Shown: positions 904 to 18,673, counted from the first letter of the stretch. The stretch: 18,673 nt of DNA from a virus (IMGVR_UViG_2617270979_000006); one strand, 5' to 3'. The notes: generated by a model from the sequence alone, not told the origin. Program-made: numbers and translations.

Positions 904-2295
904 TTATGCTTCATGTTGCTTTTTGAGATCGCTTCTAGCATAGCTCCACTCAATAATGTTGTCGGGTCGTTGCTGATCGAAAAGGATACGGGATTCAATA
1001 CCATTACCTAAAAAGCTGGTATTCCCATCTACGTAAGAAGCTATCCCTTGTGAACCAACACGAAGAATATTTTCTAATGGCTGCTTTGTTCTTGCTGCAT
1101 CGCTAAGGAGATATAAACCCGGGTACGTTTTGTTAGCACGGTGAAAAAAAAGTTCATTGTCAAAACACATGACGATGATTATTTGTCCCGACATGAGATC
1201 GGAGAGCATTTCAGTTGGCAGATGCAAACTCATAAATGGTCGAGACAAAGGGTCAAAGAATGAATCATTTATATTCACAACAGGGCTTTTTATACCGAGA
1301 CTATCCATCCATCCATTGAAGGCAACAAAGCCCATTTCAGAATCACGGTACATACCTAAGAACAAACATTCATCAATAGTATCAATTGCCCAATTTTTTC
1401 CTCCGCGAATAATCTCCCACATTTTAACTAAGCGGTGGGTATAAAATTCAGACGGATGATCTATCTCATTGATTTTAACTTTAGACTGATGAAAGTTGTC
1501 AAAGCCCTCGCCAGTATTAATCGCCTCCAGAACATTCATGCCACGAATGATTTGCCTTTTTATGCGATTAAATTGCTTAACATCATTATCAGGCATATTG
1601 TTAATGAAGTTTTCTTCAAAGTGCGGACATTCTGAGATAACAGAAAATTCAGCAGCTTCATAAAGCTCATTATTCTTTTCACCTGTTTTAACTTCCACGA
1701 GCTGGAAGCCATCCAGTAGATTAAAGGTGACTAAATCTCCCACATGAACAAATGTGCTCATGTCAGAGACAATCGCTACGGAGTGTTTGTCCTGGTTGAT
1801 AAGATCGGCTGCGACCATAGAATCAATTATGTTATCTTCTGATAGATTGTCATTGCTTGCATTAATAGGTAAACGCCGCAAACTAGAGTGTTCTTCATCA
1901 AGAATGCTCCAAATTATTGAGTCAATACAACGGCGAAGAATAAGAATTTCAAATTTTTTTAAACTTATTTCATCAATACACTTTTCTTTATTTTCTTTAT
2001 CCTTGTTTCGATGGTGCTCTTTTTTTTCAGTTTCCAATCTTTTTATATCTCTCAGCCGAATAATAATCTCAAAAGATATGATTTTTTGTGAGTCTTTCCA
2101 ATTTTTGAGACAGGTTTCATACTCTGCAAGAAAATCCTCATCATTGGAAGGTAGTTCTTGAATTGGATTCCCTCCCCTTATCATTTTGGCAAGTGCATGC
2201 ATTAAAGATACATAATGAGGTGATAAAATTGTCCAAAACTTCCTAAACGGTTTGTACTTTTCAAGAAAAGTTGACTCATCAGTATAATTCATCAT
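904..2295 (-). CDS. Uncharacterised 463-aa protein, downstream partner of the AbiH-like gene; central D-x14-E-V-K motif suggests a possible PD-(D/E)xK nuclease core
   Basis: Long ORF in visibly AT-rich DNA. Track start is TTG at 2301; the ATG at 2295 is preferred because GAGG lies 6 nt upstream. Lies 89 nt downstream of the AbiH-like gene on the same strand. Motif HVGDLVTFNLLDGFQLVEVK maps to 1687-1737. Lysine/glutamate-rich segment near the N-terminus. Confidence 0.7.
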   Translation of the reverse strand: MMNYTDESTFLEKYKPFRKFWTILSPHYVSLMHALAKMIRGGNPIQELPSNDEDFLAEYETCLKNWKDSQKIISFEIIIRLRDIKRLETEKKEHHRNKDKENKEKCIDEISLKKFEILILRRCIDSIIWSILDEEHSSLRRLPINASNDNLSEDNIIDSMVAADLINQDKHSVAIVSDMSTFVHVGDLVTFNLLDGFQLVEVKTGEKNNELYEAAEFSVISECPHFEENFINNMPDNDVKQFNRIKRQIIRGMNVLEAINTGEGFDNFHQSKVKINEIDHPSEFYTHRLVKMWEIIRGGKNWAIDTIDECLFLGMYRDSEMGFVAFNGWMDSLGIKSPVVNINDSFFDPLSRPFMSLHLPTEMLSDLMSGQIIIVMCFDNELFFHRANKTYPGLYLLSDAARTKQPLENILRVGSQGIASYVDGNTSFLGNGIESRILFDQQRPDNIIEWSYARSDLKKQHEA

Positions 2296-2384
2296 AACCA
2301 AACCTCATTCCTCTTATCTATTTTCCTCAAGGTATAAAATACCAGCCTTTTTTACATAATTATAGTTATAATATGAAGTCTCAT

Positions 2385-3254
2385 TCAGATATCTTCATAC
2401 TGTACGTAAGAAATATTTGAGCCTCTGATACCATAATCTTCTAAACTGCCTGATTTTTTCTCACCTCTATATAAAGCAACTATCCATCGAGCATTTTCTT
2501 GGATGCTTTTATTTATTTCAGTAAAGTATTCACCGTCAACTTCGGCGAGCGAGTGGCCTAAAACGATGACCTCGTCCACATTTTTAAGCGATGAGAAAAA
2601 AACGTTTTCTTCTTTAATTATGTCTTCGCTGGGCTTGAATGTATTACCGAAGTATTCGTTTATTCTGTCGTATGCCTCTGCTATTCTTGTATCTTGATCC
2701 GGTCCTATATATGGATTTAGTGACTTTTCCACCCTAAAACTATGACCAAGTATGAGATCGTCATCGTAACTACAATTGCCGTGAATATGTATGATTTGCT
2801 CGTCTGGAACGGCATAGATCTGCTGCAAGGTATTTGTATAATTAAATGAAAAATAGATGCTTTCTCTTGGTATGGGCGGGATGTATTGCTTAGGATTGTA
2901 AGCATCGGCTATGTTAATCCCTTTAACCCAATCAGCGAATTGCTCCTTCAAACGAGCTGACAGCATTTGTGTGATTTTATTTACTTCATATTGGTAATCG
3001 TGATGATAAGCATCGCTCCAATCATCGGTATTGTATGAAGCCAAAAATATCTCACTGTTTTGAAGGATAAGCTCATAATCAATTTCACCTAAAGCATTTT
3101 CTAACTCATTCCACTCGTCCCCAGCAGGAATGTATTCTTCTATCGCGTCATATAGATCTTGGTCATTTTTTTCTACATACGACTTAAAGTGCTTGTATCC
3201 TGTTGGTAAGCCATGACGCATGTCAAATCCATTTCCTATTATGTAAAGCCTCAT
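2385..3254 (-). CDS. AbiH-family abortive infection protein (289 aa)
   Basis: N-terminus MRLYIIGNGFDMRHGLPTGYKHF matches the hallmark IIGNGFD-x-HGL motif of the AbiH family (Pfam Bacteriophage abortive infection AbiH), with further FNYTNT, HIHG and LGHS motifs. Start moved from track position 3305 to the internal ATG at 3254, which has AAGGGA about 7 nt upstream. AT-rich codon usage. Confidence 0.75.
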   Translation of the reverse strand: MRLYIIGNGFDMRHGLPTGYKHFKSYVEKNDQDLYDAIEEYIPAGDEWNELENALGEIDYELILQNSEIFLASYNTDDWSDAYHHDYQYEVNKITQMLSARLKEQFADWVKGINIADAYNPKQYIPPIPRESIYFSFNYTNTLQQIYAVPDEQIIHIHGNCSYDDDLILGHSFRVEKSLNPYIGPDQDTRIAEAYDRINEYFGNTFKPSEDIIKEENVFFSSLKNVDEVIVLGHSLAEVDGEYFTEINKSIQENARWIVALYRGEKKSGSLEDYGIRGSNISYVQYEDI

Positions 3255-3357
3255 TGTTTTTCCCTTAGTCGAATTGTATAAAAATACTAACATGGCCTGC
3301 TCCACGTTGACTACTATCCCCTCCTTTGAGTAATGCCTTCATCAGATGTAACAACAT

Positions 3358-4117: not shown

Positions 4118-4483
4118 ATCTGTAAATATTTTTATAAAAATAATGCCCACACACAGCATAAAACAAAAAGTATCACAGATAAAAAAGGAGCGTAATGTGC
4201 AGATTTGTTGTTTTCCATATTTACTCACTTTAACATAATCAATATTGATATGGTTGTTGTTTTGGTGGTTTCAAACGAGATGTTATGGTGATCTGGTAAA
4301 ATTGCATAACATTAAAATTTAATTTATCTAATCGCTTTTAATAATAAGCGTTGTGTTTATCCCAACAATCTGTTGTTTGACTTTTATTCCATTAATGTAG
4401 GGGCTTTACACTGGAACCAGTTTATTTATACTTTATACGCCAGCCTGAACAACTGGCACCTGCTGCGCCAGCAGAGACAACCG

Positions 4484-4762: not shown

Positions 4763-4763
4763 C

Positions 4764-5813
4764 GTGCGGGTATTACTTCGACCTGTTCTGGTACCGGAAC
4801 TCGGGCTGGTGGTCGTTAAGCCGGGCCGTGAATCCATGCCGGTATTCCACAATACCCGGGTACTGGTGGAGCCGGAACCGAAAAGCATGCGTAATCTGCC
4901 GTCCGGGGTCGTTCCTGCCGTTCGCCAGCCGCTGGTGGAAGACAAAACATTGCTGCCGTTTTTCAGTAACGCACGGGTAATTCGTGCTGCTGGTGGTGCT
5001 GGTGCATTGTCTGACTGGCTGTTGCGCCATATTAAATCCTGCCAGTGGCCACACGGCGATTATCATCACAGCGAAACCGTTATTCACCGATATGGTACCG
5101 GCGCAATGGTGTTGTGCTGGCACTGCGACAACCAGCTGCGTGACCAGACATCCGAATCACTCGAGCAACTTGCTCATCAAAACCTGTCAGCATGGATGAT
5201 TGACGTCATCGGTCACGCAATAAGCGGTACGCAGGAGCGTGAATTATCTCTGGGTGAATTATCCTGGTGGGCGGTCCGCAATCAGCTGGCGGACGCGCTA
5301 CCGGAAGCGGTATTACGTCGCTCGCTGGGATTACCAGCGGAAAAAATCTGCTCGGTGTACCGCGAAAGCGACATCGTACCGGGAGAGCAGACCGCCACCA
5401 GCATATTGAAACAGCGCACAAAAAATCTTGCACCGTTGCCTCACGCCCACCAGCAACAAAACCCATCACAGGAAAAGACGGTGGTAAGCATCACCGTTGA
5501 TCCAGAGTCTCCGGAATCTTTCATGAAGCTGCCTAAACGTCACCGGTGGGTTAAGGAGAAATACACACGCTGGGTTAAGACACAGCCGTGTGCTTGCTGC
5601 GGTATGCCAGCCGACGATCCGCATCATCTGATTGGTCACGGGCAGGGCGGAATGGGAACCAAAGCACATGATCTCTTTGTTTTGCCTTTGTGCAGAAAGC
5701 ATCACGACGAGTTGCATACGGATACCGTGGCATTTGAAGAGAAGTATGGCTCCCAACTGGAGCTGATTTTTCGATTTATCGATCGCGCGCTGGCAATTGG
5801 TGTGCTGGCCTAA
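4764..5813 (+). CDS. ydfU: DUF968-family prophage protein (YdfU-like, 349 aa) with C-terminal HNH-like Cys/His cluster
   Basis: GTG start with GGAGG 4 nt upstream. C-terminal [43 protein letters not shown]. Length and position immediately upstream of Q match Qin YdfU as I recall it. Confidence 0.8.
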
Positions 5814-5830
5814 TTTTGTGGAGTAAGTTG

Positions 5831-6208
5831 ATGCGTGATATTCAGATGGTTCTTGAGCGTTGGGGGGCATGGGCGGCTAATAATCATGAAGATGTGACCT
5901 GGTCGTCCATTGCCGCCGGTTTTAAGGGATTAATTCCTTCAAAAGTAAGATCTCGTCCGCAATGCTGTGACGATGACGCGATGATCATTTGTGAATGTAT
6001 GGCTCGCCTGAAAAAAAACAACAGCGATTTACATGATTTATTGGTGGACTATTATATCGGCGGCATGACTTTTATGGCGCTTGCACATAAGCATGGGCGA
6101 TCTGATTGTTGGGTTGGCAGGATGCTCCAGAAAGCTGAGGGCGTAGTGGAGGGCATGCTGATGGTGTTGGATCTCCGATTGGAGATGGATGCTGATTGTT
6201 CGAAATAA
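5831..6208 (+). CDS. quuD: Late-gene antitermination protein Q (QuuD-like, 125 aa)
   Basis: [35 protein letters not shown]... matches my recollection of DLP12 QuuD. ATG at 5831 has GGAG 7 nt upstream; the track start is a TTG at 5816. Confidence 0.8.
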
Positions 6209-6306
6209 TTAAAGGAAAAGTTGCTGTCTGATTTTCATTAGTCTAACATTTTAAATGTTGGAATCGCAACGTAGTTATTATCATATAACAGCTTGTTTCC
6301 TGATTT

Positions 6307-6335
6307 AGCCAGCCTCCCCAAAGGCTGGTTTTTTT
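6307..6335 (+). terminator. tR'-like intrinsic terminator downstream of Q (end of a short late leader RNA)
   Basis: Stem agccagcc / ggctggtt (with one G.U) and loop tccccaaa, followed by a run of 7 T. Position right after Q is where lambdoid phages carry pR'/qut/tR'. Confidence 0.55.
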
Positions 6336-6363
6336 CTAATAAGTATCATTTCGGGTGGGGATT

Positions 6364-6888
6364 TTATTGTTTAACCCATAATAGTTCATTGACATTGAAT
6401 CCCAACTTTTGAGCGGTACGCACATAGTCTGCTTTTACATTATCTGGAATAGTTTGGGTCCTTGCCAGAATCCATAGGTATTCTCTGTTCGGACCACTGA
6501 CAAGAGCATACTTATACTCATCATCCAGTTTGATTACATTATAGCCACCATAGAAGGGGCCAAAAAACGAAACTTTCAACGCTGCAGTTTTAGTATCTCC
6601 AGTAAAGTATGCTTTACCTTCGCTCTCGCTCCATTTGTTTTTCGTTGGATCGTATCCACGGTTAAGTACGCGAATCCCTCCGTCGTTCCGTTTTTCATAA
6701 GTAGCGCTGACCTGTTCCAGACCACGTTCGAACCAGTTCTCGAGGCGAGCTATTTCATACCATTTTCCGAGGTAGCGGTTGGCGTCAAAATTTGTAATCG
6801 GCTGCACACCTTTAGGTGGTGTCGGGGCCTTACATGCTATAAGAGTGAAAGAGAGTGCAATGCCAGTCAACACAGGCCATAACTTCAT
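6364..6888 (-). CDS. blc: Bacterial lipocalin Blc-like outer-membrane lipoprotein (174 aa)
   Basis: MKLWPVLTGIALSFTLIACKAPTPPKG: signal peptide with lipobox LIAC. Strong similarity to E. coli Blc as recalled (NFDANRYLGKWYEIARLENWFERGLE..., KAYFTGDTKTAALKVSFFGPFYGGYNVI). AGGA 7 nt upstream of the start. Confidence 0.85.
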   Translation of the reverse strand: MKLWPVLTGIALSFTLIACKAPTPPKGVQPITNFDANRYLGKWYEIARLENWFERGLEQVSATYEKRNDGGIRVLNRGYDPTKNKWSESEGKAYFTGDTKTAALKVSFFGPFYGGYNVIKLDDEYKYALVSGPNREYLWILARTQTIPDNVKADYVRTAQKLGFNVNELLWVKQ

Positions 6889-7080
6889 AATAAATCCTGT
6901 ACTTTTGATAGTTGAGAGTAAGTATGAAAGATAGATGAGTACGACCGATCACTTAAAGAACTTTCCTACTATATTAGGAATAGTCAATAACAGAAAAATT
7001 GTCAGTGATGAAGCCAGAAAGGCAATTTAGTCCGTGCACTACAAAGTTTATGTGTTAATGAATTAGTCAAGGGGGAGGAA

Positions 7081-8040
7081 ATGATAAAAAAACCTGTGAT
7101 TGGGATCAGCGGTTGTTTGGGCGGTTCTGCTGTTCGTTTTGATGGTGGTCACAAAAGAGATGACTTTTTAATGGACAAATTAGTGGAATGGGTAACATTC
7201 AGACCAGTATGTCCGGAAATGGCTATAGGGCTGCCAGTTCCGCGTCCTGCTCTACGACTTGTGCGCTCGAAGCAAGGAAATATACGGATGTGTTTCAGCC
7301 ACGACCAGAATGAGGATGTGACAGAGAGAATGACAGAGTTTAGTCGTTCTTATATGGACAAATTAAAGGATGTATCGGGGTTTGTGGTTTGTGCTAAATC
7401 TCCCAGCTGTGGCATGGAGCGCGTGCGTGTCTATGATGAAAATGGTAATCGAGGTCGTAAAGATGGAGTGGGACTATTTACGAGCACTTTGATGGAAAAG
7501 TTTTCCTGGCTACCGGTTGAGGAGGATGGGCGATTACATGATCCAGTGCTTCGTGAGAATTTTATTGAAAGAGTTTTTGCTTTGCATGAGCTCAATCACC
7601 TTTACAAGGAGAAATTATCAAGAAGAGAGTTATTAGCTTTTCATAGTCGTTATAAGCTTCAGTTGTTGGCGCATAGCCAGGCAGGCTATAAAGATATGGG
7701 ACCATTTGTGGCTGCAATACACGAGTGGGCGGACCTTGAATCATACTTTGAGGTGTATCGTGATAATCTGATGGCGATTCTCAGAAAACCAGCATCACGT
7801 AAAAATCACACGAATGTGCTGATGCATATACAGGGGTATTTTAGTAATTACTTAAGTACACGCCAGCGTAAAGAGTTGAGCGAGGTTATACTTAACTATC
7901 GCTTTGGCACATTGCCTCTTCTTGCGCCGTTGACTCTGCTGAAGCATTATCTGGGTGAGTATCCTAATGATTACTTGCTTACACAGAATTACTTCGATCC
8001 CTATCCGGAAGAACTGGCTCTAAGACTGAAGGTGAATTAA
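7081..8040 (+). CDS. TudS (DUF523) - DUF1722 fusion protein, RudS-like putative thiouridine desulfidase (319 aa)
   Basis: N-terminal domain carries the three conserved Cys expected for the TudS [4Fe-4S] site (GISGCLGG, RPVCPE, CAKSPSCG). C-terminal half resembles YbgA/DUF1722 (HSRYKLQLLAHSQ, HTNVLMHIQGYFS). Strong RBS GGGGGAGG. Confidence 0.75.
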   Translation: MIKKPVIGISGCLGGSAVRFDGGHKRDDFLMDKLVEWVTFRPVCPEMAIGLPVPRPALRLVRSKQGNIRMCFSHDQNEDVTERMTEFSRSYMDKLKDVSGFVVCAKSPSCGMERVRVYDENGNRGRKDGVGLFTSTLMEKFSWLPVEEDGRLHDPVLRENFIERVFALHELNHLYKEKLSRRELLAFHSRYKLQLLAHSQAGYKDMGPFVAAIHEWADLESYFEVYRDNLMAILRKPASRKNHTNVLMHIQGYFSNYLSTRQRKELSEVILNYRFGTLPLLAPLTLLKHYLGEYPNDYLLTQNYFDPYPEELALRLKVN

Positions 8041-8446
8041 CTGTATGCGATATCATCTGAAAGTGATGAGTTCCTGTATGCAGGATATTTACAATCGTAA
8101 AAACTACGCTATGATGCTCATAGTGTCAGTTTTTATAAAAATCCTGTTCACGCTAAAGAAAACATTGAGATGCAATTTAATGTTGGTAAACATACCAGCC
8201 CCAAAAGATTTTATTCAATCTGTTTTTATATGAAGATATTTCAAGTGAATATAAAGAGCATATAATATTATTATTGCACGCAGCTATTATAATATAACAG
8301 ATTAGTTTAATGATTTGTTTTTTGTGAGTTAAACACATGGTTTTATAGTTGTGATGCAATGAGATTTTCCTTATTGTTGAACTGGCGAATATTGATTTTC
8401 CACCTATACTTACCTGGTGTAACCCCAATGATATCAGGTGGATAAT

Positions 8447-9160
8447 ATGTCATACATATGTTCTATCATTTTGGTGTTGAACTCGTTTGGTGTCCGAATT
8501 GGTAAAGAAGATATTTTGTTTAAAAAAGGAAATGCTGTCCTCATTGAATACAATTTAAAAGATCTTTTTTCGTCAAATACAGATCATCTAATGATCGTAG
8601 ATGTTGAGGAGAAAACAGTTAATGATTTCTTTAAAAACTACACACTCTCACCTTTTTCTGTAAGAAGGTTTTATCCGTCATACTTGATAGTAGAATGTGA
8701 AGATTTTTCATTGTTAAAGAACTTGGTTGCATGCTTGAATTGTGATAGCAAAACCGTGGATGTAGTTAGAAATCAAATATCACTTGCATGTCTTGCTGTC
8801 TTATCTTCAGAGAAAATAGTGCAAAGTTTTTTGTTCGGAAGTCTTAATAACTTAGGTTGTAAAGTTAAGGCTATTATTCACTCGGATATCTCAGCGTCAT
8901 GGAGACTTTGTGATATATCTTCAAGATTATATATGAGCGAGAGTTTGTTAAAAAGAAAATTAAAAGACGAAGGATTATCGTTTAGTAAATTAATTCTTGA
9001 AGAACGAATGATGATGGCGCAAAGATTATTGATCTACAGTAACCATACTGTCGGCAAGGTGGCGGGAATATGCGGGTATGACAATGCATCATATTTTGTA
9101 AGTGTTTTTAGAGGATATTTTGGTGTGCCTCCGCACCAATATTTATCAAGATTTTCTTAG
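8447..9160 (+). CDS. AraC/XylS-family transcriptional regulator, AppY/GadX/YdeO-like (237 aa)
   Basis: C-terminal double HTH (SESLLKRKLKDEGLSFSKLILEERMMMAQRLL, GYDNASYFVSVFRGYFGVPPHQY). N-terminus MSYICSIILVLNSFGVRIG...FKKGNAVL parallels prophage-encoded AppY as recalled. AT-rich gene preceded by about 400 bp of AT-rich DNA. Confidence 0.8.
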   Translation: MSYICSIILVLNSFGVRIGKEDILFKKGNAVLIEYNLKDLFSSNTDHLMIVDVEEKTVNDFFKNYTLSPFSVRRFYPSYLIVECEDFSLLKNLVACLNCDSKTVDVVRNQISLACLAVLSSEKIVQSFLFGSLNNLGCKVKAIIHSDISASWRLCDISSRLYMSESLLKRKLKDEGLSFSKLILEERMMMAQRLLIYSNHTVGKVAGICGYDNASYFVSVFRGYFGVPPHQYLSRFS

Positions 9161-9228
9161 AAGATATGATGTGATGGCATTTTATAAAGTTATTTTTTGA
9201 AGTGTAAGATTATACGATATTTTTAGCT

Positions 9229-9260
9229 ACGCCAGAATAATTGCTGGCGTTTTTCTTTTT
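9229..9260 (+). terminator. Intrinsic terminator after the AraC-like gene
   Basis: Stem acgccag / ctggcgt with 8-nt loop, followed by tttttcttttt. Confidence 0.6.
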
Positions 9261-9350
9261 GAATAGATGTTCGGGCCTTACGCTAATGTAACTTCTTTCC
9301 TTCTTCGAACCAAACCGTGTACACCATCCGTTATCTGCGGAGGTGAGGCT

Positions 9351-9566
9351 ATGAAATCCATGGATAAGTTAACAACGGGCATCGCCTACAGCACCTCTGC
9401 AGGCAGTGCTGGCTACTGGTTTTTACAGTTGCTCGATAAAGTCACGCCCTCACAGTGGGCGGCAATAGGTGTATTGGGTAGTCTGGTATTTGGCATGCTG
9501 ACGTATCTGACAAATCTTTATTTCAAGATTAAAGAAGACAGGCGTAAGGCTGCGAGAGGAGAGTAA
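9351..9566 (+). CDS. Phage-21-type class II holin / pinholin (S21, EssD/EssQ-like, 71 aa) with dual-start motif
   Basis: [71 protein letters not shown], with Met1 and Met4 starts typical of the antiholin/holin pair. RBS GGAGGTGAGG. The upstream extension of the track ORF (9267) is rejected. Confidence 0.85.
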
Positions 9567-9570
9567 TCCA

Positions 9571-9878
9571 ATGACTCAAGACTATGAACTGGTTGTGAAA
9601 GGAGTCCGTAATTTTGAGAATAAAGTTACGGTAACTGTAGCCTTACAGGACAAAGAACGCTTTGACGGTGAAATTTTTGGCCTGGATGTCGCCATGGACC
9701 GTGTTGAAGGAGCTGCGCTGGAGTTTTATGAGGCAGCAGCCAGAATGAGCGTCCGGCAAGTCTTCCTGGAAGTAGCAGAAAAATTGTCAGAAAAAGTTGA
9801 GTCTTATCTGCAGCATCAGTACTCCTTTAAGATTGAAAATCCTGCCAATAAGCACGAGCGTCCTCATCATAAATATCT

Positions 9879-9882
<4 letters not shown>
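9571..9882 (+). CDS. ydfR: Small protein between holin and endolysin (YdfR-like, 103 aa)
   Basis: Length and position between S and R match Qin ydfR as recalled. AGGAG RBS. Stop overlaps the endolysin start (ATGA). Confidence 0.6.
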
Positions 9883-10906
<1,024 letters not shown>

Positions 10907-11269
10907 GGTAATATTAAATCGGAACATTTACATCGCGGAATGTAAAATTTAAATAAAAAGGACTCTTCCATGAGCCAAAATTCCTGAAATCTTAAGGGTA
11001 AGATAAAAGGTCTTAATCAGAATGACACGTTATTATTAATAAATAAAGCTATTCTTTCATTGCTGTGTTTTTCTTTACAAAAGTAATCCTTGCTATGGGT
11101 GGTTAATCATGCGTTAATGGTGTTCTGGTTTGTTACAAATTTATCTGAAGCAGTCATTGTTATAATTTTATTATTTGTACCTCTTGAGATTTCCTTGTTG
11201 GTTTTTCTCTCTGATATTTTTTTTCGGACCATTCTGCCCAAGGGCTAATTTCTTCAAAAGGTAATAATT
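10907..11269 (+). promoter_or_regulatory. Long AT-rich leader/promoter region of the csp gene (candidate cold-shock 5' UTR)
   Basis: About 360 nt of ORF-free AT-rich DNA with a perfect TATAAT near 11160 and TTGCTA-N18-TTAATG near 11085-11115. CspA-family genes are known to have long structured 5' UTRs. The transcription start is not determinable by eye. Confidence 0.4.
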
Positions 11270-11482
11270 ATGTCTAACAAAATGACTGGTTTAGTGAAAT
11301 AGTTTAACCCTGAAAAAGGTTTTGGTTTCATCACGCCGAAAGATGGCAGCAAAGATGTGTTTGTCCATTTCTCAGCAATTCAGAGCAACGATTTCAAAAC
11401 ATTAACTGAGAATCAGGAAGTTGAATTTGGTATTGAGAACGGACCTAAAGGTCCTGCCGCTGTTCATGTAGTGGCGCTTTGA
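11270..11482 (+). pseudogene. cspI: CspA-family cold-shock protein gene (CspI-like) interrupted by an in-frame amber codon at codon 11
   Basis: Reads [72 protein letters not shown]-stop. The TAG at 11300-11302 replaces the invariant Trp (TGG) of the WFN motif. No downstream in-frame Met, so no full-length product without suppression. Confidence 0.8.
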
Positions 11483-11681
11483 GGTAGACAATATTACAAA
11501 CCATATTCACTTTAGATGCCCGTGTTGTCATGGTTCCCAGTATAGAACATCATCTTTTGATGTTTCTGACATGAATCCTTTCGGGGCAAAATGTATCTTT
11601 TGTAAATCAATGATGATTACATTTGATAATATTTCACAATACTTAAATGCCAGCCGTCTGTCGTTGGATTTAAAAAAGTGA
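11472..11681 (+). pseudogene. Zinc-ribbon small ORF (YdfK/YnaE-like, by recollection) lacking a start codon for its conserved N-terminal part
   Basis: Open frame ...FRCPCCHGSQYRTSSFDVSDMNPFGAKCIFCKSMMITFDNISQYLNASRLSLDLKK with two Cys pairs (CPCC, CIFC). No ATG/GTG/TTG between the upstream stop (11469-11471) and the internal ATG at 11571. Confidence 0.35.
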
Positions 11682-11686
11682 AAATG

Positions 11687-11709
11687 AAGGCTCCTTCGGG
11701 AGCTTTTTT
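11687..11709 (+). terminator. Intrinsic terminator after the csp / zinc-ribbon unit
   Basis: Stem aaggctcc / ggagcttt (one G.U) with UUCG tetraloop, followed by a T run. Confidence 0.6.
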
Positions 11710-11753
11710 GCTTGGTATCTATTCGATGGATACTCACATACTACGGTAACATC

Positions 11754-11984
11754 ATGAAAAAAATCATGGTTTTTTTTAACTCTGAACCAGCAGTGGTAGT
11801 GCCAGCGATGACTGGAGTTAACACCATCATGCGTGAATATCCAAATGGCGAAAAAACACACCTTACTGTAATGGCCGCAGGGTTTCCATCTCTGACCGGA
11901 GATCATAAAGTCATTTATGTAGCAGCGGATCGACATGTAACTTCAGAAGAAATTCTGGAAGCAGCAATGAGACTCTTGAATTGA
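11754..11984 (+). CDS. Hypothetical small protein (76 aa)
   Basis: MKKIMVFFNSEPAVVVPAMTGVNTIMREYPNGEKTHLTVMAAGFPSLTGDHKVIYVAADRHVTSEEILEAAMRLLN. Starts just after a terminator. Weak RBS; family not recognised. Confidence 0.4.
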   Translation: MKKIMVFFNSEPAVVVPAMTGVNTIMREYPNGEKTHLTVMAAGFPSLTGDHKVIYVAADRHVTSEEILEAAMRLLN

Positions 11985-12156
11985 TTTGATTCTAATGCAT
12001 TGATAATAAATGATAATCATCTTTATCTGTTTGTGTGAAATTTAGACCGTCGTATGTTGATTATTGCGATGTTTCATCTTATCTTTTATACGTTTGCTCC
12101 ATATAATTGACACTACTGTGTACCAGGACAGTCATAACAGACTAAAAGAGGAAATG

Positions 12157-12330
12157 ATGAACATTGAAGAGTTAAAAACAAAAACAGAAGCAGATATTTC
12201 TGAATATATAACAAAAAAAATCATTGAGCTTAAGAAAAAGACCGGGAAAGAAGTTACCAGTATCCAGTTTACTGCACGGGAAAAAATGACTGGTCTTGAA
12301 AGCTATGATATCAAGATTGATTTAATCTAG
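12157..12330 (+). CDS. gnsB: Gns-family protein (GnsA/GnsB-like, 57 aa)
   Basis: MNIEELKTKTEADISEYITKKIIELKKKTGKEVTSIQFTAREKMTGLESYDIKIDLI resembles GnsB as recalled. AAGAGGAA RBS; a second in-frame ATG lies at 12154. Confidence 0.8.
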   Translation: MNIEELKTKTEADISEYITKKIIELKKKTGKEVTSIQFTAREKMTGLESYDIKIDLI

Positions 12331-12394
12331 CATGTTTATAGTATTAGCATCAATTTCTCATCAGATGCTATTCAACAATACAAATTACCCATAA

Positions 12395-12419
12395 ACCTCG
12401 TTTTTACGGGGTTTTTTTA
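12395..12419 (+). terminator. Intrinsic terminator after gns
   Basis: Stem acctcg / cggggt (one G.U) with loop ttttta, followed by a run of 8 T. Confidence 0.55.
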
Positions 12420-12625
12420 TATTTAAACATTACCGAATAGATATAAATCTCGATTGTCGATGGTATTGGTTATGTGACAATACCTAGTCTTTCCGGTATG
12501 CCTGAAGAGAATACAAACGACAGATTATGTAAGGGAAACGCGCTGAAACTTTCACTCTTTCATGCTGAGTGATTTGACGTTATATTTTTAGCCGCAAGTG
12601 AAGAGCAAACGAATGGAGCGACAAA

Positions 12626-12832
12626 ATGCATAAAGATCAATACACTGATGCCCCCTCCCAGGAGCAGGTTCGTGTAAAAACTATGCTTAATAGCACCATT
12701 TCGATGGGTTACCCGGATGTTGTAATTGCATGTATAGAACATCAAGTATCTCTGGAAGCATTCAGGGCAATTGAGGCCGCGTTAGTAAAGCACGATAAGA
12801 ATACGAAGGATTATTCCCTGGTGGTTGACTGA
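12626..12832 (+). CDS. Hypothetical small protein (68 aa)
   Basis: ORF with GGAG 7 nt upstream of the ATG: [68 protein letters not shown]. Family not recognised. Confidence 0.45.
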
Positions 12833-13197
12833 TCACCATAACTGCTAACCATTCTGACCATTTCACAAGTGACAGAGTCAATATCGTATTCTGTCACTGT
12901 AAGGCTAATACAGTACTGCAATTCAACTACAGCAATGCCTCGTATTTAGGTGAATTTACAATATCGTCCAGTTCGGATGCCGGCTGCATTTCTGAAGATA
13001 AGGCATTTCGGTTCGCGTATTTTCCCCTCATGCTCGTCAGTCCTGCGCGTAGTAAGAAACAGGACACTCACACTAATTTGTGTGGGCATGCTGTGATGTC
13101 CTTCTGAATTATCCCCATGCCATTATGTAAAGCTCTGTTTCAGATGCTCGTCACGGTTGTCAGGCTGTCGGGTCCTCCCAGTGGGGGTCCCTGCCAC

Positions 13198-13215
13198 GGG
13201 GCGGGAGCGTCGCGG
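13198..13215 (+). other. Candidate cosN-like cohesive-end site upstream of the terminase genes
   Basis: GGGGCGGGAGCGTCGCGG resembles the lambda left-end cosN sequence GGGCGGCGACCTCGCGG as I recall it. It lies about 180 nt upstream of the small terminase start, as in lambda. Confidence 0.35.
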
Positions 13216-13394
13216 AAAAAGGCTATTTTTTGCATTTCCATGGCGGCGGCAGCATGTTTGGTAATTTATTGATAATTAAAAGTTATTTCTCTTTTCAGCT
13301 GTACAATATTTTTTTCTCCCTGTCATTAGACTAGTTTGCAATTAATTGAAATATATAAATAAACCTGATTTTCACCTGCCAGATGGAGTTGCTT

Positions 13395-13922
13395 ATGTCA
13401 AATGTGAGCGGGATCGGTGATGCTTATTACTGGAGTGTTTTTAAAATCGCCGAGGCCTTTGGGCTTCACCGGGACACAGTAAAAAAACGGCTCCTCGCGG
13501 CCAACACTCCTGTGGCTGCGACTGTCAGGGGGAACCCCGTTTACGCCCTGCAGCATGTCGGGCCCGCCCTGTTTAGTGTGAAGCATGAGGCAGCAGACTC
13601 TGTTCATGATCCATCCCGTATGGAGCCGAAAGAGAGAAAGGACTGGTACCAGTCTGAAAATGAAAGGATCAAGCTGGAAAAGGAGCAGCGAAAACTCATC
13701 CCAGTTGATGAAGTAGTCATCGTCTATTCGTCCATGAGAAAGGCTGTCGTCCAGGTTCTGGAGACAATTCCGGATGTTCTTGAACGCGATTGCGCCCTGA
13801 CTCCTCAGGCCGTCGGCGTTGTACAGCAGGCCATTGATGACCTGCGATACACTCTTCAGGAAAAATCCTACGAGGCTTGTGCTGCTGAATTAATTCCTGA
13901 TGAGGAAGGAGAGAGTCTCTAG
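13395..13922 (+). CDS. Terminase small subunit (Nu1-like DNA packaging protein, 175 aa)
   Basis: N-terminal HTH (SVFKIAEAFGLHRDTVKKRL) and charged coiled segment (ERKDWYQSENERIKLEKEQRKL). GGAG 6 nt upstream of the ATG at 13395. Immediately precedes terL. Confidence 0.8.
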   Translation: MSNVSGIGDAYYWSVFKIAEAFGLHRDTVKKRLLAANTPVAATVRGNPVYALQHVGPALFSVKHEAADSVHDPSRMEPKERKDWYQSENERIKLEKEQRKLIPVDEVVIVYSSMRKAVVQVLETIPDVLERDCALTPQAVGVVQQAIDDLRYTLQEKSYEACAAELIPDEEGESL

Positions 13923-13930
13923 GAGGAATA

Positions 13931-15556
13931 ATGGGTTTTTCATCAGCCCGAAATTTGGGAAGGGACATATCGGCAGGATTTTCCCCACCACGTCGCATGC
14001 CGATTTCGGAGGCTGTTAAAAAATTCATGCGTGTTCCCAAGGGGGCTGGTAACTCGGTGCCATGGGATCCTGAACTGACACCCTACATCATTGAGCCCAT
14101 GAACTGCCTGGCATCGCGTGAATACGATGCGGTGATTTTTGTTGGTCCTGCGCGAACAGGGAAGACCATTGGTCTGATCGATGGATGGATTGTCTATACC
14201 ATCGTTTGCGATCCTTCGGACATGCTCGTTGTGCAGATGACCGAAGATAAGGCCCGCGAGCATTCTAAAAAGCGCCTCGACAGAACGTTCAGAAGCAGTG
14301 CGGCGGTAAAGAAAAGAATGAGTCCACGTCGTAACGACAATAATGTCCATGATAAGACGTTCAGGGATGGCTCGTTCCTTAAAATTGGTTGGCCCTCGGT
14401 CAACATTATGTCGTCGTCGGATTACCGGTTTGTCGCCTTAACCGATTACGACCGTTTTCCGGAGAATATCGACAGCGAGGGTGATGGTTTCTCCCTGGCC
14501 TCAAAACGTACCACCACATTTATGTCCGCCGCGATGACTCTGGTGGAGAGCTCGCCGGGACGTGACATCTGCGACAGCAAATGGCGACGTAAGTCGCCTC
14601 ATGAAGCGCCACCGACGACTGGTATTCTTTCCCTTTACAATCGTGGTGACCGCCGCCGCTGGTACTGGCCATGTCCGCACTGCGGTGAATATTTTCAGCC
14701 AGCTATGGATGCCATGACCGGCTACCGTAATGAACCGGATCCCTTTAAAGCCAGTGAGGCGGCGTATCTACTTTGCCCACACTGCAGCGGCATTATCACT
14801 GCGGAGAAAAAGCGTGAGCTCAATAGTGCAGGAGTCTGGTTGCGTGAAGGTCAGGTCATTGATCGTAACGGCAACGTTTCCGGTGAACCGCGCCGCTCCC
14901 GTAATGGCAGCAAGGATAAGGAACGCGAGCTTACCATTCAGCCAGGCATTATTTACGATGATCTGAAACCCGGCGAAGAAATCGGAATGGTGAAGTCGGA
15001 TCGCCCAAATCCTAACCTTGAAACTTTTCGTAATGGTCAGTTGCGTGCCGTGGCGGCGGGCAGTCGTCTGAGTTTTTCCAGTACAGCGCGCAACTATAAC
15101 GGCACTTACAGCGCCCAGCGTCAGGAGCTGGTTGAATCCACTGATGGCTACCTGATCCTGCAGGACTGGTTTATTGGTGCCGTCACCCGTCCGATGTATC
15201 GTGCCTGGCTGAAACAGGCTGTGGCATCCGGTGTTATCAGGCTACCCCGCGATCTTGACCTTTCTTCACTGTATACCGCGGTGTATTCCGGACCGGTGAT
15301 GCCGTGGATTGACCCTGTTAAGGAGGCTGAGGCCTGGAAAATCCAGATTCGTGGTGGAGCGGCGACAGAATCAGACTGGGTACGTGCTGGTGGTCGTAAT
15401 CCGGATGATGTCAAACGTCGGCGCAAGGCCGAAATTGATGAAAACCGCAAGCTGGATCTGGTATTTGATACCGATCCGGCCAGTGATAAAGGAGGCAGCA
15501 GTGCCGCAACGAAACGACAGGAGCCGCAGCACACCGACGACCAGTCCGAAGAATAA
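13931..15556 (+). CDS. Terminase large subunit GpA-family ATPase domain, with a C-terminal portion that looks portal-like (possible in-frame terL::portal fusion)
   Basis: Walker A VIFVGPARTGKT; GpA-type zinc-finger region WYWPCPHCGEYF...LLCPHCSGI, collinear with lambda gpA N-terminal half as recalled. C-terminal about 200 aa (SFSSTARNYNGTYSAQ...PWIDPVKEAEAWKI...) lacks nuclease motifs and resembles lambda-type portal C-termini. RBS GGAGG. Confidence 0.7.
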   Translation: MGFSSARNLGRDISAGFSPPRRMPISEAVKKFMRVPKGAGNSVPWDPELTPYIIEPMNCLASREYDAVIFVGPARTGKTIGLIDGWIVYTIVCDPSDMLVVQMTEDKAREHSKKRLDRTFRSSAAVKKRMSPRRNDNNVHDKTFRDGSFLKIGWPSVNIMSSSDYRFVALTDYDRFPENIDSEGDGFSLASKRTTTFMSAAMTLVESSPGRDICDSKWRRKSPHEAPPTTGILSLYNRGDRRRWYWPCPHCGEYFQPAMDAMTGYRNEPDPFKASEAAYLLCPHCSGIITAEKKRELNSAGVWLREGQVIDRNGNVSGEPRRSRNGSKDKERELTIQPGIIYDDLKPGEEIGMVKSDRPNPNLETFRNGQLRAVAAGSRLSFSSTARNYNGTYSAQRQELVESTDGYLILQDWFIGAVTRPMYRAWLKQAVASGVIRLPRDLDLSSLYTAVYSGPVMPWIDPVKEAEAWKIQIRGGAATESDWVRAGGRNPDDVKRRRKAEIDENRKLDLVFDTDPASDKGGSSAATKRQEPQHTDDQSEE

Positions 15557-15569
15557 TTCCTGGTTCAGG

Positions 15570-15665
15570 ATGCAGGCTGGTCACCAGAGTGACGCGGATA
15601 TTTATATTTATGACGAGATTGGTTTCTGGGGTGTTACAGCGAAGCAGTTTAGGGTAAATTCGTAA
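15570..15665 (+). pseudogene. N-terminal stub of a phage head maturation (prohead) protease
   Basis: MQAGHQSDADIYIYDEIGFWGVTAKQFRVNS-stop. The IYIYDEIGFWG...TAKQF pattern is the characteristic N-terminus of ClpP/S49-like prohead proteases; the frame terminates after 31 codons. Confidence 0.4.
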
Positions 15666-15737
15666 TGATTACCTAAATACGTTATTCTTTTGTTCAAAAA
15701 GTGATTTTGCTATAGGTAGGGAGTATGTTCTTGGATT

Positions 15738-15772
15738 AAGAATAAAAATCGCCATGAAAGAGCTTCATGGCG
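15738..15772 (-). terminator. Candidate intrinsic terminator on the minus strand within the AT-rich region
   Basis: Perfect 9-bp stem cgccatgaa / ttcatggcg with a 5-nt loop; on the minus strand it is followed by ATTTTTATT. Confidence 0.45.
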
Positions 15773-16476
15773 AGTACATAAACGTACAAAATATGATGAA
15801 AGTAGAGTGGCGTAAGCCACTATATTAAGATATGACAATAGCGAAGAAAAGTAAATAACATTTTATGGGCGTTTAATTGTTAATTATAAAAACTAGAGTG
15901 CCCGATATTGTTTATCTTGCTTTAAAATAATGTACTCAAACCAAATTTTTGAGCTAAAAGCTCAAATAATATAAATGCAATGATAATGTTTAATAAGACA
16001 ATTAGCTTGCTTTGTATTTTCATTTCGGAATACTGTTAAGTAACTTTGATGACACTAACAATAGATCGGAATTTTCTTAGAGTCAATGGTCACTGTTTTT
16101 GCTTGCAAAGCAAATGTTTTTGGTGGTTATAAGTTTTCTTAATATAGTCACCTATGCAACTTGTTCCGTGTGGAGATTAAAGGTTAAAATTTAATGCGAA
16201 GATGGAATTATAATATATTTTTTTATAATTAATTTAACCTTAACATCGTTGCTGGCGGCATGGAAGAAATATCGGGTCTTGCTGATGTCGTGTTGGCACT
16301 TCCTTAGTGCGGTTATCGAATGGCCAGCTGTACCTGTGGGGTAAAAACTTTATATGGGTGCTATTTTTATAATAGCTGGTAAAAACTGGCCGAACTGAAA
16401 TTCACTGTTGATAAAAAAGATGTGTTTGAGTGTATGTCATTGTTTTCTTAATGGAATCCACTAGAATGCAGCGAAT

Positions 16477-16674
16477 TTAAGAAGGTGGGTTTTTATTGGA
16501 ATATAAACTACAATAATGCTCAACTCGTTCGTAGAATTGTTTTTTCTTATTTTTTGGAATGCTAACCATTATATGCATTATGGGGGCGATACTTCCTGAT
16601 AATTTACATGATGCATACATTGAAGCAATAAATTCAATATCATTGTCATCAAAGTTAAAGCTTTCTCCGTCCAT
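16477..16674 (-). CDS. Candidate small protein (65 aa) inside the AT-rich ORF-poor region
   Basis: MDGESFNFDDNDIEFIASMYASCKLSGSIAPIMHIMVSIPKNKKKQFYERVEHYCSLYSNKNPPS, with AAGGAA 5-6 nt upstream of the ATG. No recognisable family; AT-rich DNA produces ORFs by chance. Confidence 0.3.
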   Translation of the reverse strand: MDGESFNFDDNDIEFIASMYASCKLSGSIAPIMHIMVSIPKNKKKQFYERVEHYCSLYSNKNPPS

Positions 16675-17389
16675 TTCAATTCCTTATGTGTTTGGCACAA
16701 CTGATGCTGTATCCCATGAGAATTTATGCAAGTTGTTATGTTTGATTTGATATTGCAATGATAATTGTAGCTAATTGTTTTCAATTGAGTGAAAGTTTAT
16801 TTCGAGTGATTAAGTCGAAAAAAAAGATTTCTCACGGTTAGTAAGCGTATTAGGTTAGTATTCAGATATGAATGGTATTAATGACTAAATTTTCAATCAT
16901 ATATGGATTTTTATGCTGATGAAGATGTTTTATTTGGCGATTCGTCAAGCATCTTCACTTAAGTAATCGTATATTTTAAGAGTGCAAAAGAGAAAGGGAC
17001 AACGTTGCTCGCACTCTGGATTAAATATAGGGTGTTGTTAAACTGCGTTGATACATAATTGTACCGGATATTGAGTGGTCTGAAGTCCCAGTCATTAAGT
17101 AATCGTTTCGTGATATGCCGCAGAAACGTTGTATGCAATAACGTTCTGCGGTTGGCTGATGCACTTTCGAGAGTGTATTGAATAATTTCAAGCCGTTATT
17201 GTTTTTACGCGTAACACCATGAAAAGACTGCTTATCTGTTGGGTATTTTTTGGGGCATATATGGGACAGAAATAGGCCACAGATAGATAGTAAGATCGAA
17301 CTCAGGATGCTTTTGAAAAAATGTAACTATCTGAAAAAACCTAGAAAGCGCCAAGGAAACCACAGAATGAGAAAAAACATCTGTGAATT

Positions 17390-18673
17390 ATGGATTTCCA
17401 GTTATATTCGCTCGGCGCAGCGTTAGTGTTTCATGAAATATTTTTTCCTGAATCATCAACGGCAATGGCGTTAATTTTGGCAATGGGAACCTACGGTGCA
17501 GGTTATGTGGCGCGTATTGTCGGAGCATTTATTTTCGGCAAAATGGGCGACAGAATAGGGCGTAAAAAAGTGCTCTTTATTACCATCACCATGATGGGGA
17601 TCTGTACCACCTTAATTGGTGTGTTACCGACCTATGCACAGATTGGTGTTTTTGCCCCCATCTTGCTGGTGACGCTGCGTATTATTCAGGGGTTGGGTGC
17701 AGGTGCGGAAATTTCCGGTGCCGGTACGATGCTGGCGGAATATGCACCAAAAGGTAAGCGCGGAATTATCTCCTCATTTGTAGCTATGGGAACTAACTGC
17801 GGAACCTTGAGCGCAACGGCAATCTGGGCCTTTATGTTCTTCATTCTCAGTAAAGAGGAACTGCTGGCGTGGGGATGGCGTATACCGTTCCTGGCGAGCG
17901 TTGTCGTGATGGTCTTTGCTATCTGGTTACGTATGAATCTGAAAGAAAGCCCGGTCTTTGAGAAGGTTAATGACAGCAACCAACCCACAGCAAAACCTGC
18001 ACCTGCTGGTAGCATGTTCCAGAGCAAATCCTTCTGGCTGGCAACAGGGCTGCGTTTTGGTCAGGCGGGTAACTCCGGGTTAATTCAGACTTTCCTTGCA
18101 GGCTATTTAGTGCAGACGTTATTGTTTAACAAAGCAATTCCAACAGATGCATTGATGATTAGTTCGATTCTCGGCTTTATGACCATTCCGTTCCTTGGTT
18201 GGTTATCCGATAAAATTGGTCGCCGGATCCCGTATATTATTATGAATACCTCCGCGATTGTGCTGGCATGGCCAATGCTTTCTATCATTGTAGATAAAAG
18301 CTATGCCCCGAGCACCATTATGGTTGCACTGATTGTGATTCATAACTGTGCGGTGCTGGGATTATTTGCTCTGGAAAACATTACCATGGCAGAAATGTTC
18401 GGCTGTAAAAACCGCTTTACCCGGATGGCTATTTCTAAAGAAATTGGTGGTCTTATCGCTTCCGGTTTTGGTCCTATCCTGGCGGGTATTTTCTGCACCA
18501 TGACGGAATCCTGGTATCCGATCGCCATTATGATCATGGCATATTCAGTAATTGGTTTAATCTCTGCGCTGAAAATGCCAGAGGTGAAAGACCGTGATTT
18601 AAGTGCGCTGGAAGACGCTGCGGAAGATCAACCGCGTGTTGTAAGAGCTGCGCAACCTTCCAGAAGTCTGTAA
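17390..18673 (+). CDS. ydfJ: MFS metabolite:H+ symporter-family transporter YdfJ, N-terminally truncated at the prophage junction (427 aa)
   Basis: Typical MFS motifs (GKMGDRIGRKK, GWLSDKIGRRIPY). The ORF begins in the middle of what should be TM1 (aligns to the W-x-DF-x-LYG motif region of ShiA/KgtP-type symporters) and is bounded by an in-frame TGA at 17384-17386. Length matches E. coli K-12 YdfJ as recalled. Confidence 0.85.
   Translation: MDFQLYSLGAALVFHEIFFPESSTAMALILAMGTYGAGYVARIVGAFIFGKMGDRIGRKKVLFITITMMGICTTLIGVLPTYAQIGVFAPILLVTLRIIQGLGAGAEISGAGTMLAEYAPKGKRGIISSFVAMGTNCGTLSATAIWAFMFFILSKEELLAWGWRIPFLASVVVMVFAIWLRMNLKESPVFEKVNDSNQPTAKPAPAGSMFQSKSFWLATGLRFGQAGNSGLIQTFLAGYLVQTLLFNKAIPTDALMISSILGFMTIPFLGWLSDKIGRRIPYIIMNTSAIVLAWPMLSIIVDKSYAPSTIMVALIVIHNCAVLGLFALENITMAEMFGCKNRFTRMAISKEIGGLIASGFGPILAGIFCTMTESWYPIAIMIMAYSVIGLISALKMPEVKDRDLSALEDAAEDQPRVVRAAQPSRSL

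What the first reader, a model, noticed from the sequence alone, without database searches (positions are those of the whole stretch)
13931..15665. Terminase large subunit with a portal-like C-terminus followed by a protease stub: likely deletion scars in the packaging/head module
The first 300 or so residues align with the GpA-type ATPase and zinc-finger region, but the remainder resembles the C-terminus of lambda-type portal proteins rather than the terminase nuclease domain, and the ORF stays in frame. Immediately after it only 31 codons of a prohead protease remain. This suggests two deletions, one in-frame between terL and portal and one after the protease N-terminus, leaving a prophage that cannot package DNA.
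Basis: inference. Interest (0 to 1): 0.45.

Follow-up and report, generated by a model that had tools for sequence, protein, structure and literature searches.

The report
Terminase–portal fusion scar in prophage
A decayed Qin-type prophage of E. coli has lost 2.2 kb and 18.6 kb of its packaging, head and tail genes, leaving an in-frame terminase–portal chimera and a protease stub. This is ordinary prophage decay, although the scars sit at re-used TA sites.

Summary

- **The ORF.** ORF 13931..15556 (541 aa) is TerL residues 1-324 joined in frame to portal residues 286-502. TerL keeps the whole GpA ATPase and Cys-motif region. It is followed by the first 50 codons of a ClpP-protease/major-capsid gene.
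- **The progenitor.** A near-identical intact prophage at the same ydfJ site (E. coli Combat11I9) fixes both scars.
  - Deletion 1 is 2,191 bp, with its junction at GTA (14901-14903).
  - Deletion 2 is 18,589 bp, with its junction at TA (15650-15651). It runs to 8 nt before the tfaQ stop.
- **What was lost.** The TerL nuclease domain, gpW, the portal N-terminus, the capsid gene and all tail genes. The element cannot package DNA.
- **Is it real?** The exact allele occurs on at least 24 contigs in the same context, so it is not a misassembly. It is in none of 5,426 complete E. coli genomes. NCBI names it "phage portal protein".
- **Is it a designed architecture?** No. I mapped about 26 other terL-anchored deletion alleles with other breakpoints.

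One thing is unexplained. Nine of 11 junctions mapped at nucleotide level, including all three in this window, carry TA in the microhomology, against 2-6% expected. The same sites recur with different partners.

The parts
13383..13922 (+). Small terminase subunit gene (DUF1441 family), intact. RefSeq relatives start it 12 nt later, giving 175 aa.
   Evidence: Pfam DUF1441 E=2e-44. PHROG 141 terminase small subunit E=4e-65. Same gene as WP_001389340.1 in relatives.
13931..14903 (+). 5' part of terL: codons 1-324, covering the whole GpA ATPase domain with Walker A (GPARTGKT) and the two CPHC motifs.
   Evidence: 324 of 327 residues identical to intact TerL of Combat11I9. Pfam GpA_ATPase 40-303. 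DNA has 1 mismatch in 1604 nt to L003 8209-9812.
14901..14903 (.). Junction 1: a 3-nt microhomology GTA shared by terL (CCCGTA|TCGCC) and portal (GATGGTA|ATGGC). 2,191 bp are deleted relative to the intact relative.
   Evidence: The same left site CCCGTA is the left breakpoint of two other deletion alleles, L012 and L014.
14904..15556 (+). 3' part of the portal gene: codons 286-502 plus the stop, read in frame with terL.
   Evidence: 217 of 217 residues identical to the Combat11I9 portal. DNA 100% identical to L003 12001-12751. Aligns to lambda gpB about 332-434 and to portal 8vhx 353-549.
15501..15651 (+). 5' stub of the ClpP-like prohead protease / major capsid fusion gene: 50 native codons from the GTG start (Shine-Dalgarno AAAGGAGG at 15488-15495), or 27 from the ATG at 15570. 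The open frame then reads RVNS and stops at 15663-15665.
   Evidence: 100% identical to the start of the 675-aa gene L003 12601-14628. PHROG 133 head maturation protease E=1e-13. Sequence read.
15650..15651 (.). Junction 2: a 2-nt microhomology TA between the protease gene (CAGTTTA|TCAG) and the 3' end of tfaQ (CACCTATA|GGGTAA). 18,589 bp are deleted relative to the intact relative.
   Evidence: GC content drops from about 55% to about 30% here.
15652..17389 (.). Last 6 nt of tfaQ plus the AT-rich right arm of the prophage up to the attachment junction. It includes a conserved 65-aa ORF at 16477..16674 (-).
   Evidence: 99.5-99.9% identical to the region downstream of tfaQ in AR_0128, TW14425 and Combat11I9.
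17390..18673 (+). ydfJ', the host MFS transporter gene truncated at its 5' end by prophage integration (427 aa). It marks this as the Qin-type integration site.
   Evidence: Annotated as ydfJ missing its N-terminus in all relatives. PMC6379469 describes Qin integration at the 5' end of ydfJ.

Best explanation
This is the decaying packaging/head end of a Qin-type lambdoid prophage integrated in ydfJ of E. coli.

Two illegitimate break-and-join deletions hit a prophage that was originally like the intact one in strain Combat11I9.
- **Deletion 1 (2,191 bp).** It joined terL codon 324/325 to portal codon 285/286 at a shared GTA. It happened to keep the reading frame. It removed the TerL nuclease domain, the gpW-like gene and the first 285 portal codons.
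- **Deletion 2 (18,589 bp).** It joined codon 50/51 of the ClpP-protease/major-capsid gene to a TA 8 nt before the tfaQ stop. It removed the capsid, head-completion and tail genes.

The resulting 541-aa ORF is a by-product, not a designed protein. It has a complete ATPase domain. Its portal piece covers only the end of the clip, the second stem helix, the second wing segment and the crown, and lacks the N-terminal wing. It can therefore neither cut cos DNA nor form a portal ring.

Basis of each step:
- Shown: the two junctions, their sizes, what was lost, and that the allele is real and inherited.
- Inferred: loss of packaging ability, lack of function of the chimera, and the enzymology of the deletions.
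For: - **Domains.** The split at residue 324/325 is seen in Pfam and PHROGs.
- **Identity to the parts.** 324 of 327 residues match intact TerL and 217 of 217 match the intact portal.
- **Intact TerL for comparison.** It has GpA_ATPase 40-303 plus GpA_nuclease 325-643.
- **Colinearity.** The DNA is colinear with Combat11I9 at 99.9-100% on both sides of both junctions.
- **Junctions.** GTA and TA microhomologies were read directly.
- **The progenitor is complete.** Combat11I9 carries the full head and tail module at the same ydfJ site.
- **The allele is real.** The exact protein is in NCBI, ENA and Logan on at least 24 contigs, all in the same context. Three loci are 100% identical over 13300-17400.
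- **Other alleles exist.** About 26 other terL-anchored deletion alleles have other breakpoints and partners: portal, capsid, tape measure, gpJ, stf and tfa.
- **Portal piece.** Lambda gpB domain limits come from PMC10721106, combined with the alignment.
- **Locus is known to vary.** Qin-site size variation of 11-97 kb is documented (PMC6379469).
Against: Nothing contradicts the deletion reading. Four caveats remain.
- No genome with only one of the two deletions was found, so their order is unknown.
- All carriers are nearly identical, so selection on the chimera cannot be assessed. One variant, E349D, exists.
- Expression was not tested.
- The junctions are not what random microhomology-mediated deletion predicts. 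They lie at TA dinucleotides and at sites re-used in other alleles. The word "illegitimate" therefore hides an unidentified, apparently site-preferring mechanism.
Confidence: 0.94

Rival explanations
1. The chimeric TerL-ATPase::portal-C protein is retained because it does something useful. For example, it could act as a dominant-negative packaging inhibitor against superinfecting relatives, or as a domesticated ATPase.
For: - The frame is open over 541 codons with no later damage.
- The ATPase domain is complete, ending exactly where Pfam's nuclease domain starts.
- The terS gene upstream is intact.
- The allele is found on at least 24 contigs.
Against: - Carriers are nearly clonal (100% identity over 4.1 kb), so persistence needs no selection.
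- One in three random deletions is in frame.
- Other alleles break TerL at 126, 167, 173, 265, 272, 366, 393, 426, 463 and 508, and some are out of frame.
- There is no PADLOC match.
- The allele is absent from 5,426 complete genomes.
Confidence: 0.03
2. The fusion is an assembly or chimeric-contig artefact rather than a real genomic arrangement.
For: No complete (long-read) E. coli genome in RefSeq shows this configuration. All carriers found are draft or metagenome contigs.
Against: - Identical junctions occur in independent NCBI, ENA and Logan assemblies, on contigs up to 291 kb.
- The 2-3-nt overlaps are too short to mislead an assembler.
- Both flanks continue colinearly into host genes.
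Confidence: 0.01
3. The 541-aa protein is a native bifunctional architecture of some phage lineage, not a scar.
For: Both halves have significant family matches and the ORF is uninterrupted.
Against: - Only the last 95 of 354 portal profile positions are present.
- Both halves are 99-100% identical to separate full-length genes in an intact prophage.
- The only near-full-length hit in 5.8 billion clustered proteins is the same allele with a later start, P0002. All others cover 62% or less of the query.
Confidence: 0.01

Closest known systems
Qin cryptic prophage of E. coli K-12 and its strain variants at ydfJ
   Same: Same integration site, leaving ydfJ' at 427 aa. Same late-region genes: ydfU, Q antiterminator, essQ, ydfR, rrrQ, rzpQ, cspI, ynfN, gnsB and DUF1441 terS. 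Strain-to-strain size variation through deletions is documented (PMC6379469).
   Different: This allele has its own pair of breakpoints, found in no complete genome. K-12 and the listed relatives keep other remnants, such as stfQ/tfaQ/pinQ or terL truncated at codon 426 or 508.
Intact lambdoid prophage at ydfJ in E. coli Combat11I9 (NZ_CP021726.1)
   Same: 99.9-100% nucleotide identity on both sides of both junctions. Same gene order: terS, terL, gpW-like, portal, protease/capsid fusion, then tail genes, stf and tfaQ.
   Different: It carries the 2,191 bp and 18,589 bp that are missing here. It also has an IS1 and an IS903B that the window lacks.
Lambda gpA (TerL) and gpB (portal)
   Same: Same Pfam families (GpA_ATPase and Phage_portal_2, lambda family) and the same gene order Nu1-A-W-B-C.
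   Different: Only 23% and 26% identity to lambda. The head protease here is ClpP-like and fused to the capsid protein, rather than lambda's S49 gpC plus a separate gpE.
Other terL-anchored deletion chimeras in E. coli databases (e.g. 824-aa 'terminase gpA endonuclease subunit', 768-aa 'phage tail tape measure protein', 471-aa TerL::Tfa)
   Same: Same terL gene, same kind of deletion fusion, and the same tendency to be named after the downstream partner. P0042 and P0029 use the very same left breakpoint, CCCGTA.
   Different: Different right-hand partners (stf, tape measure, capsid, gpJ, tfa) and mostly different TerL breakpoints.

Membership tests
GpA-type terminase large subunit (PF05876 + PF20454) | N-terminal packaging ATPase domain with Walker A | tested here: met
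   GpA_ATPase covers residues 40-303, E=3e-81. GPARTGKT is present in the translation.
GpA-type terminase large subunit (PF05876 + PF20454) | C-terminal endonuclease domain (GpA_nuclease) | tested here: not met
   No PF20454 match in the 541-aa ORF. The intact relative has it at 325-643. The DNA encoding it is deleted.
Lambda-family portal protein (PF05136) | Full portal fold: N-terminal wing, both stem helices, clip and crown | tested here: not met
   Only profile positions 260-354 of 354 match. Portal residues 1-285 are absent. By alignment to gpB about 332-434 and the domain limits in PMC10721106, only the end of the clip, stem 2, wing 2 and the crown remain.
ClpP-like prohead protease / major capsid fusion protein | ClpP protease domain and capsid domain | tested here: not met
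   In the intact 675-aa protein, CLP_protease spans 31-191 and Phage_capsid_4 spans 377-672. Only codons 1-50 remain here.
Qin-type prophage at ydfJ | Integration at the 5' end of ydfJ, leaving a truncated 427-aa ydfJ' next to the right arm | tested here: met
   ORF 17390..18673 is 427 aa. The flank is identical in ydfJ-site prophages. PMC6379469.
Qin-type prophage at ydfJ | Shared Qin late-region gene set | tested here: met
   Window 404-14903 is 99.8% identical to the JSMCR1 locus annotated with ydfU, essQ, ydfR, rrrQ, rzpQ, cspI, ynfN and gnsB. Pfam matches.
Deletion scar by illegitimate (short-homology) recombination | Colinearity with an intact relative on both sides, with an abrupt switch | tested here: met
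Deletion scar by illegitimate (short-homology) recombination | Junction positions and microhomology sequences random with respect to sequence | tested here: not met
   9 of 11 nucleotide-level junctions in this prophage family have TA in the microhomology, against 2-6% expected. Sites are re-used with different partners.

The most novel reading that the evidence does not exclude
The scars in this window were not made by random microhomology slippage. They were made by a TA-specific, site-preferring break-and-join activity that repeatedly uses the same TA sites in this prophage family.

Candidate enzymes are a T|A-cleaving type IA topoisomerase or nickase, or a hit-and-run TA-targeting transposase.

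- The window's left site CCCGTA is the left end of three different deletions.
- TerL codon 426 has six different partners and codon 463 has five.
- Portal codon 64 serves as both a left and a right end.
Probability: 0.35. Interest if true: 0.55.

Novelty: already known. Interest (0 to 1): 0.17.

Why it matters
As a finding it matters little. It is one more strain-specific decay state of a well-known cryptic prophage locus.

Its practical value is as an annotation warning. The 541-aa chimera is deposited as "phage portal protein". Sister chimeras are named after whichever tail gene they ran into.

The part that could matter is the side observation. Deletion scars in this prophage family sit at TA dinucleotides, and the same sites are re-used in different combinations. 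If that holds in a systematic survey, prophage decay in E. coli is partly driven by a sequence-preferring enzyme rather than by random slippage. That would be testable in defined mutants.

Tried and rejected
**Comparisons that added little**
The near-identical intact relative supersedes them.

**Searches that found nothing**
- Exact junction-1 40-mer in GTDB species representatives: no hit.
- Exact junction-2 40-mer in JGI metagenomes: no hit.
- Left-site patterns in IMG/VR: no hits.
- PADLOC on the chimera: no hit.
- A genome with only one of the two deletions, which would order them: none found.
- Literature on TA-bounded prophage deletions: nothing relevant.

**Explanations for the TA and hot-site pattern that were tested**
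- Hairpin or loop context: not supported. MFE is -7.7 against -8.0 kcal/mol for background TA sites, and TA is unpaired in 64% against 62%.
- Pin/gix-like invertase sites: none found.
- IS elements at the junctions: none seen in the annotated relatives.
- E. coli topoisomerase I rule, C four nt upstream of T|A (PMC9352719): weak. 16 of 22 sites fit against a 53% background (p=0.05). Same-strand pairs fit in 6 of 15 against 20% (p=0.06).
- A GRTA/TAYC context is enriched, 19 of 25 against 39% (p=2e-4). This test was chosen after seeing the data.

**A test that cannot be made from these data**
- An apparent excess of in-frame chimeras cannot be assessed from the protein database. Out-of-frame alleles collapse into clusters of truncated TerL.

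Full report
**1. The observation**

The window holds an uninterrupted ORF at 13931..15556 (+, 541 aa).
- Pfam places a complete GpA_ATPase domain at residues 40-303 (E=3e-81).
- Pfam also finds a Phage_portal_2 match at 317-411, but it covers only the last 95 of 354 profile positions. The GpA nuclease domain is not found.
- PHROGs split the protein cleanly: terminase large subunit 2-324 and portal 325-540.
- The next ORF (15309..15665) matches head-maturation proteases only over their first 40 or so positions.

**2. What it is**

The flanking gene is ydfJ' (17390..18673, 427 aa). The whole window is a Qin-type lambdoid prophage integrated in ydfJ. The literature describes this site and its large size variation between strains (PMC6379469).

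Strain Combat11I9 (NZ_CP021726.1) carries an essentially intact prophage at the same site:
- terS (DUF1441)
- terL (699 aa; ATPase 40-303 and nuclease 325-643)
- a gpW-like gene
- portal (502 aa)
- a ClpP-protease/major-capsid fusion (675 aa)
- the tail genes, stf and tfaQ

The window aligns to it in three colinear blocks:

| Window | Combat11I9 | Identity |
|---|---|---|
| 13300-14903 | terS/terL | 1 mismatch in 1604 nt |
| 14901-15651 | portal 3' end plus protease 5' end | 100% |
| 15650-16867 | last 8 nt of tfaQ plus the right arm | 99.9% |

**3. The two junctions**
- Junction 1 joins CCCGTA|TCGCC (terL) to GATGGTA|ATGGC (portal) at a shared GTA (14901-14903). It removes 2,191 bp.
- Junction 2 joins CAGTTTA|TCAG (protease gene) to CACCTATA|GGGTAA (tfaQ end) at a shared TA (15650-15651). 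It removes 18,589 bp.
- GC content falls from about 55% to about 30% at junction 2.

At protein level the ORF is TerL 1-324 (324 of 327 aligned residues identical) plus portal 286-502 (217 of 217 identical). The frame is preserved by chance: terL position 973 is a first codon position, and the next retained portal base is a second codon position.

**4. What is left and what is lost**

The chimera keeps the entire ATPase domain, including Walker A and the two CPHC motifs. It loses the whole nuclease domain.

The retained portal piece aligns to lambda gpB about 332-434. Using the published gpB domain limits (PMC10721106), I infer that this piece is the end of the clip, the second stem helix, the second wing segment and the crown. 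The large N-terminal wing and the first stem helix are missing.

Between junction 2 and ydfJ' there is only the AT-rich right arm. The element therefore has no capsid gene, no tail genes and no working terminase or portal.

"Cannot package DNA" is an inference, but a secure one.

**5. A small correction on the stub**

RefSeq starts the intact protease/capsid gene at the equivalent of GTG 15501, inside the portal 3' end. A strong Shine-Dalgarno sequence (AAAGGAGG, 15488-15495) sits 5 nt upstream. On that start the stub has 50 native codons plus 4 read-through codons.

**6. Real, but rare**

The exact 541-aa sequence is in NCBI, ENA and Logan (for example EFC6451366.1). It is named "phage portal protein".

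It was found on at least 24 contigs, always between terS and the ydfJ' arm. Three fetched loci are 100% identical to the window over 13300-17400, and one is 99.9% identical. That excludes an assembly artefact.

None of 5,426 complete RefSeq E. coli genomes has either junction. Neither do GTDB species representatives, JGI metagenomes or IMG/VR. The allele belongs to a narrow, nearly clonal lineage. That also means nothing can be said about selection on the chimera.

**7. Rivals**
- *A native bifunctional architecture* is excluded. In a search of 5.8 billion clustered proteins, the only near-full-length hit is the same allele called from a later start. All others cover 62% or less of the query.
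- *An exapted function* cannot be excluded but has no support. There is no defence-family match. I mapped about 26 other terL-anchored deletion alleles in that search. Their TerL breakpoints are at 126, 167, 173, 265, 272, 366, 393, 426, 463 and 508. Their partners are portal, capsid, tape measure, gpJ, stf or tfa, and several are out of frame.

**8. Other decay marks in the window**
- Relative to strain JSMCR1, about 5.0 kb of the early region is missing at window 404-408. This removes ydfD, dicB, ydfA, the repressor pair, ydaT and the replication organiser.
- cspI carries a TGG-to-TAG nonsense codon at 11300-11302.

**9. The unexplained part**

I mapped 11 junctions of this prophage family at nucleotide level against intact references. 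Nine have TA inside the microhomology:
- all three in this window (GTA, TA, TA);
- AR_0128 TerL426::stf814;
- TW14425 portal64::tfa44;
- JSMCR1 TerL508::gpW and portal64::TMP740;
- P0042 TerL324::tfa44;
- P0028 TerL463::capsid279.

A simulation on the same DNA expects TA in 2% of 2-nt, 4.5% of 3-nt and 6.4% of 4-nt microhomologies.

Two further junctions were seen but not scored because the right-hand parent allele was not available. They are L014 (TerL324::stf') and JSMCR1 TMP891::stf'.

The same sites are also re-used with different partners:
- The window's left site CCCGTA is also the left end of the P0042 and P0029 alleles.
- TerL codon 426 has six partners, codon 463 has five and codon 265 has three.
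- Portal codon 64 acts as a right end in two alleles and as a left end in two others.
- One site in tfa (GATA|TTGCACC) receives three different left ends.

Two junctions are exceptions, with microhomologies A and GA.

I tested several explanations:
- hairpin context: none;
- invertase sites: none;
- IS elements at the junctions: none annotated;
- the in vivo cleavage rule of E. coli topoisomerase I, T|A with C at -4 (PMC9352719): only weak, p about 0.05;
- a GRTA/TAYC context: enriched, but the test was chosen after seeing the data.

The pattern itself is statistically solid on the junctions I could read. The sample is small and was not de-duplicated by phylogeny. The mechanism remains open.

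**10. Verdict**

The finding is an ordinary, already well-understood kind of thing: a deletion-scarred cryptic prophage at a classic locus. Its only practical consequence is a misleading database name.

Interest is low. The TA-bounded, re-used breakpoints are the one lead worth a systematic follow-up.

Noticed in passing
window 14901-14903, 15650-15651 and 407-408; L001, L002, L004, L012, L014, L016, L017: Deletion junctions in this prophage family sit at TA. Nine of 11 nucleotide-level junctions have TA in the microhomology, against 2-6% expected. The same TA sites are re-used with different partners: TerL codons 265, 324, 426 and 463, portal codon 64, and tfa codon 44. The mechanism is unknown. 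Hairpin, invertase-site and IS explanations were not supported. The topoisomerase I rule gave only weak support.
   Followed up: partly
window 404-408: A third deletion scar. Relative to strain JSMCR1 (L004 910-5925), about 5.0 kb of the early region is missing: ydfD, dicB, ydfA, the repressor/cro-like pair, ydaT and the replisome organiser. It joins an exonuclease gene fragment to a DUF977 gene at a shared TA.
   Followed up: partly
window 11270-11482: cspI carries a premature stop: TGG to TAG at codon 11 (11300-11302). It is otherwise 212 of 213 nt identical to the intact gene in JSMCR1.
   Followed up: yes
window 904-3305 (- strand): An AbiH-family abortive-infection gene (2385..3305) lies next to a 465-aa ORF (904..2301) with no Pfam or PADLOC match. 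The same pair is present in JSMCR1 and LR-27. It may be a two-gene defence cassette carried by the prophage.
   Followed up: partly
window 13931-15556; proteins P0001, P0024, P0023, P0040: Public annotation names these chimeras after the downstream partner. The 541-aa fusion is "phage portal protein". Others are "phage tail tape measure protein" and [quoted passage not shown]. The TerL half is hidden by these names.
   Followed up: yes
P0014 (668 aa, Logan contig); TerL residues about 302-309 and portal residues about 139-147: TerL (GVWLREGQVI) and portal (TWLRDGEVFAQ) share a short motif. In a TerL lineage 72% identical to this one, an independent TerL::portal fusion appears to have its junction exactly on this motif.
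   Followed up: no
H124, NZ_CP028110.1 (E. coli O121 RM8352), terL nt 982-2100: One complete genome keeps only the terL part downstream of about nt 982. Its breakpoint therefore lies within a few bases of the window's junction-1 site, but here as a right-hand end. This was not examined at nucleotide level.
   Followed up: no
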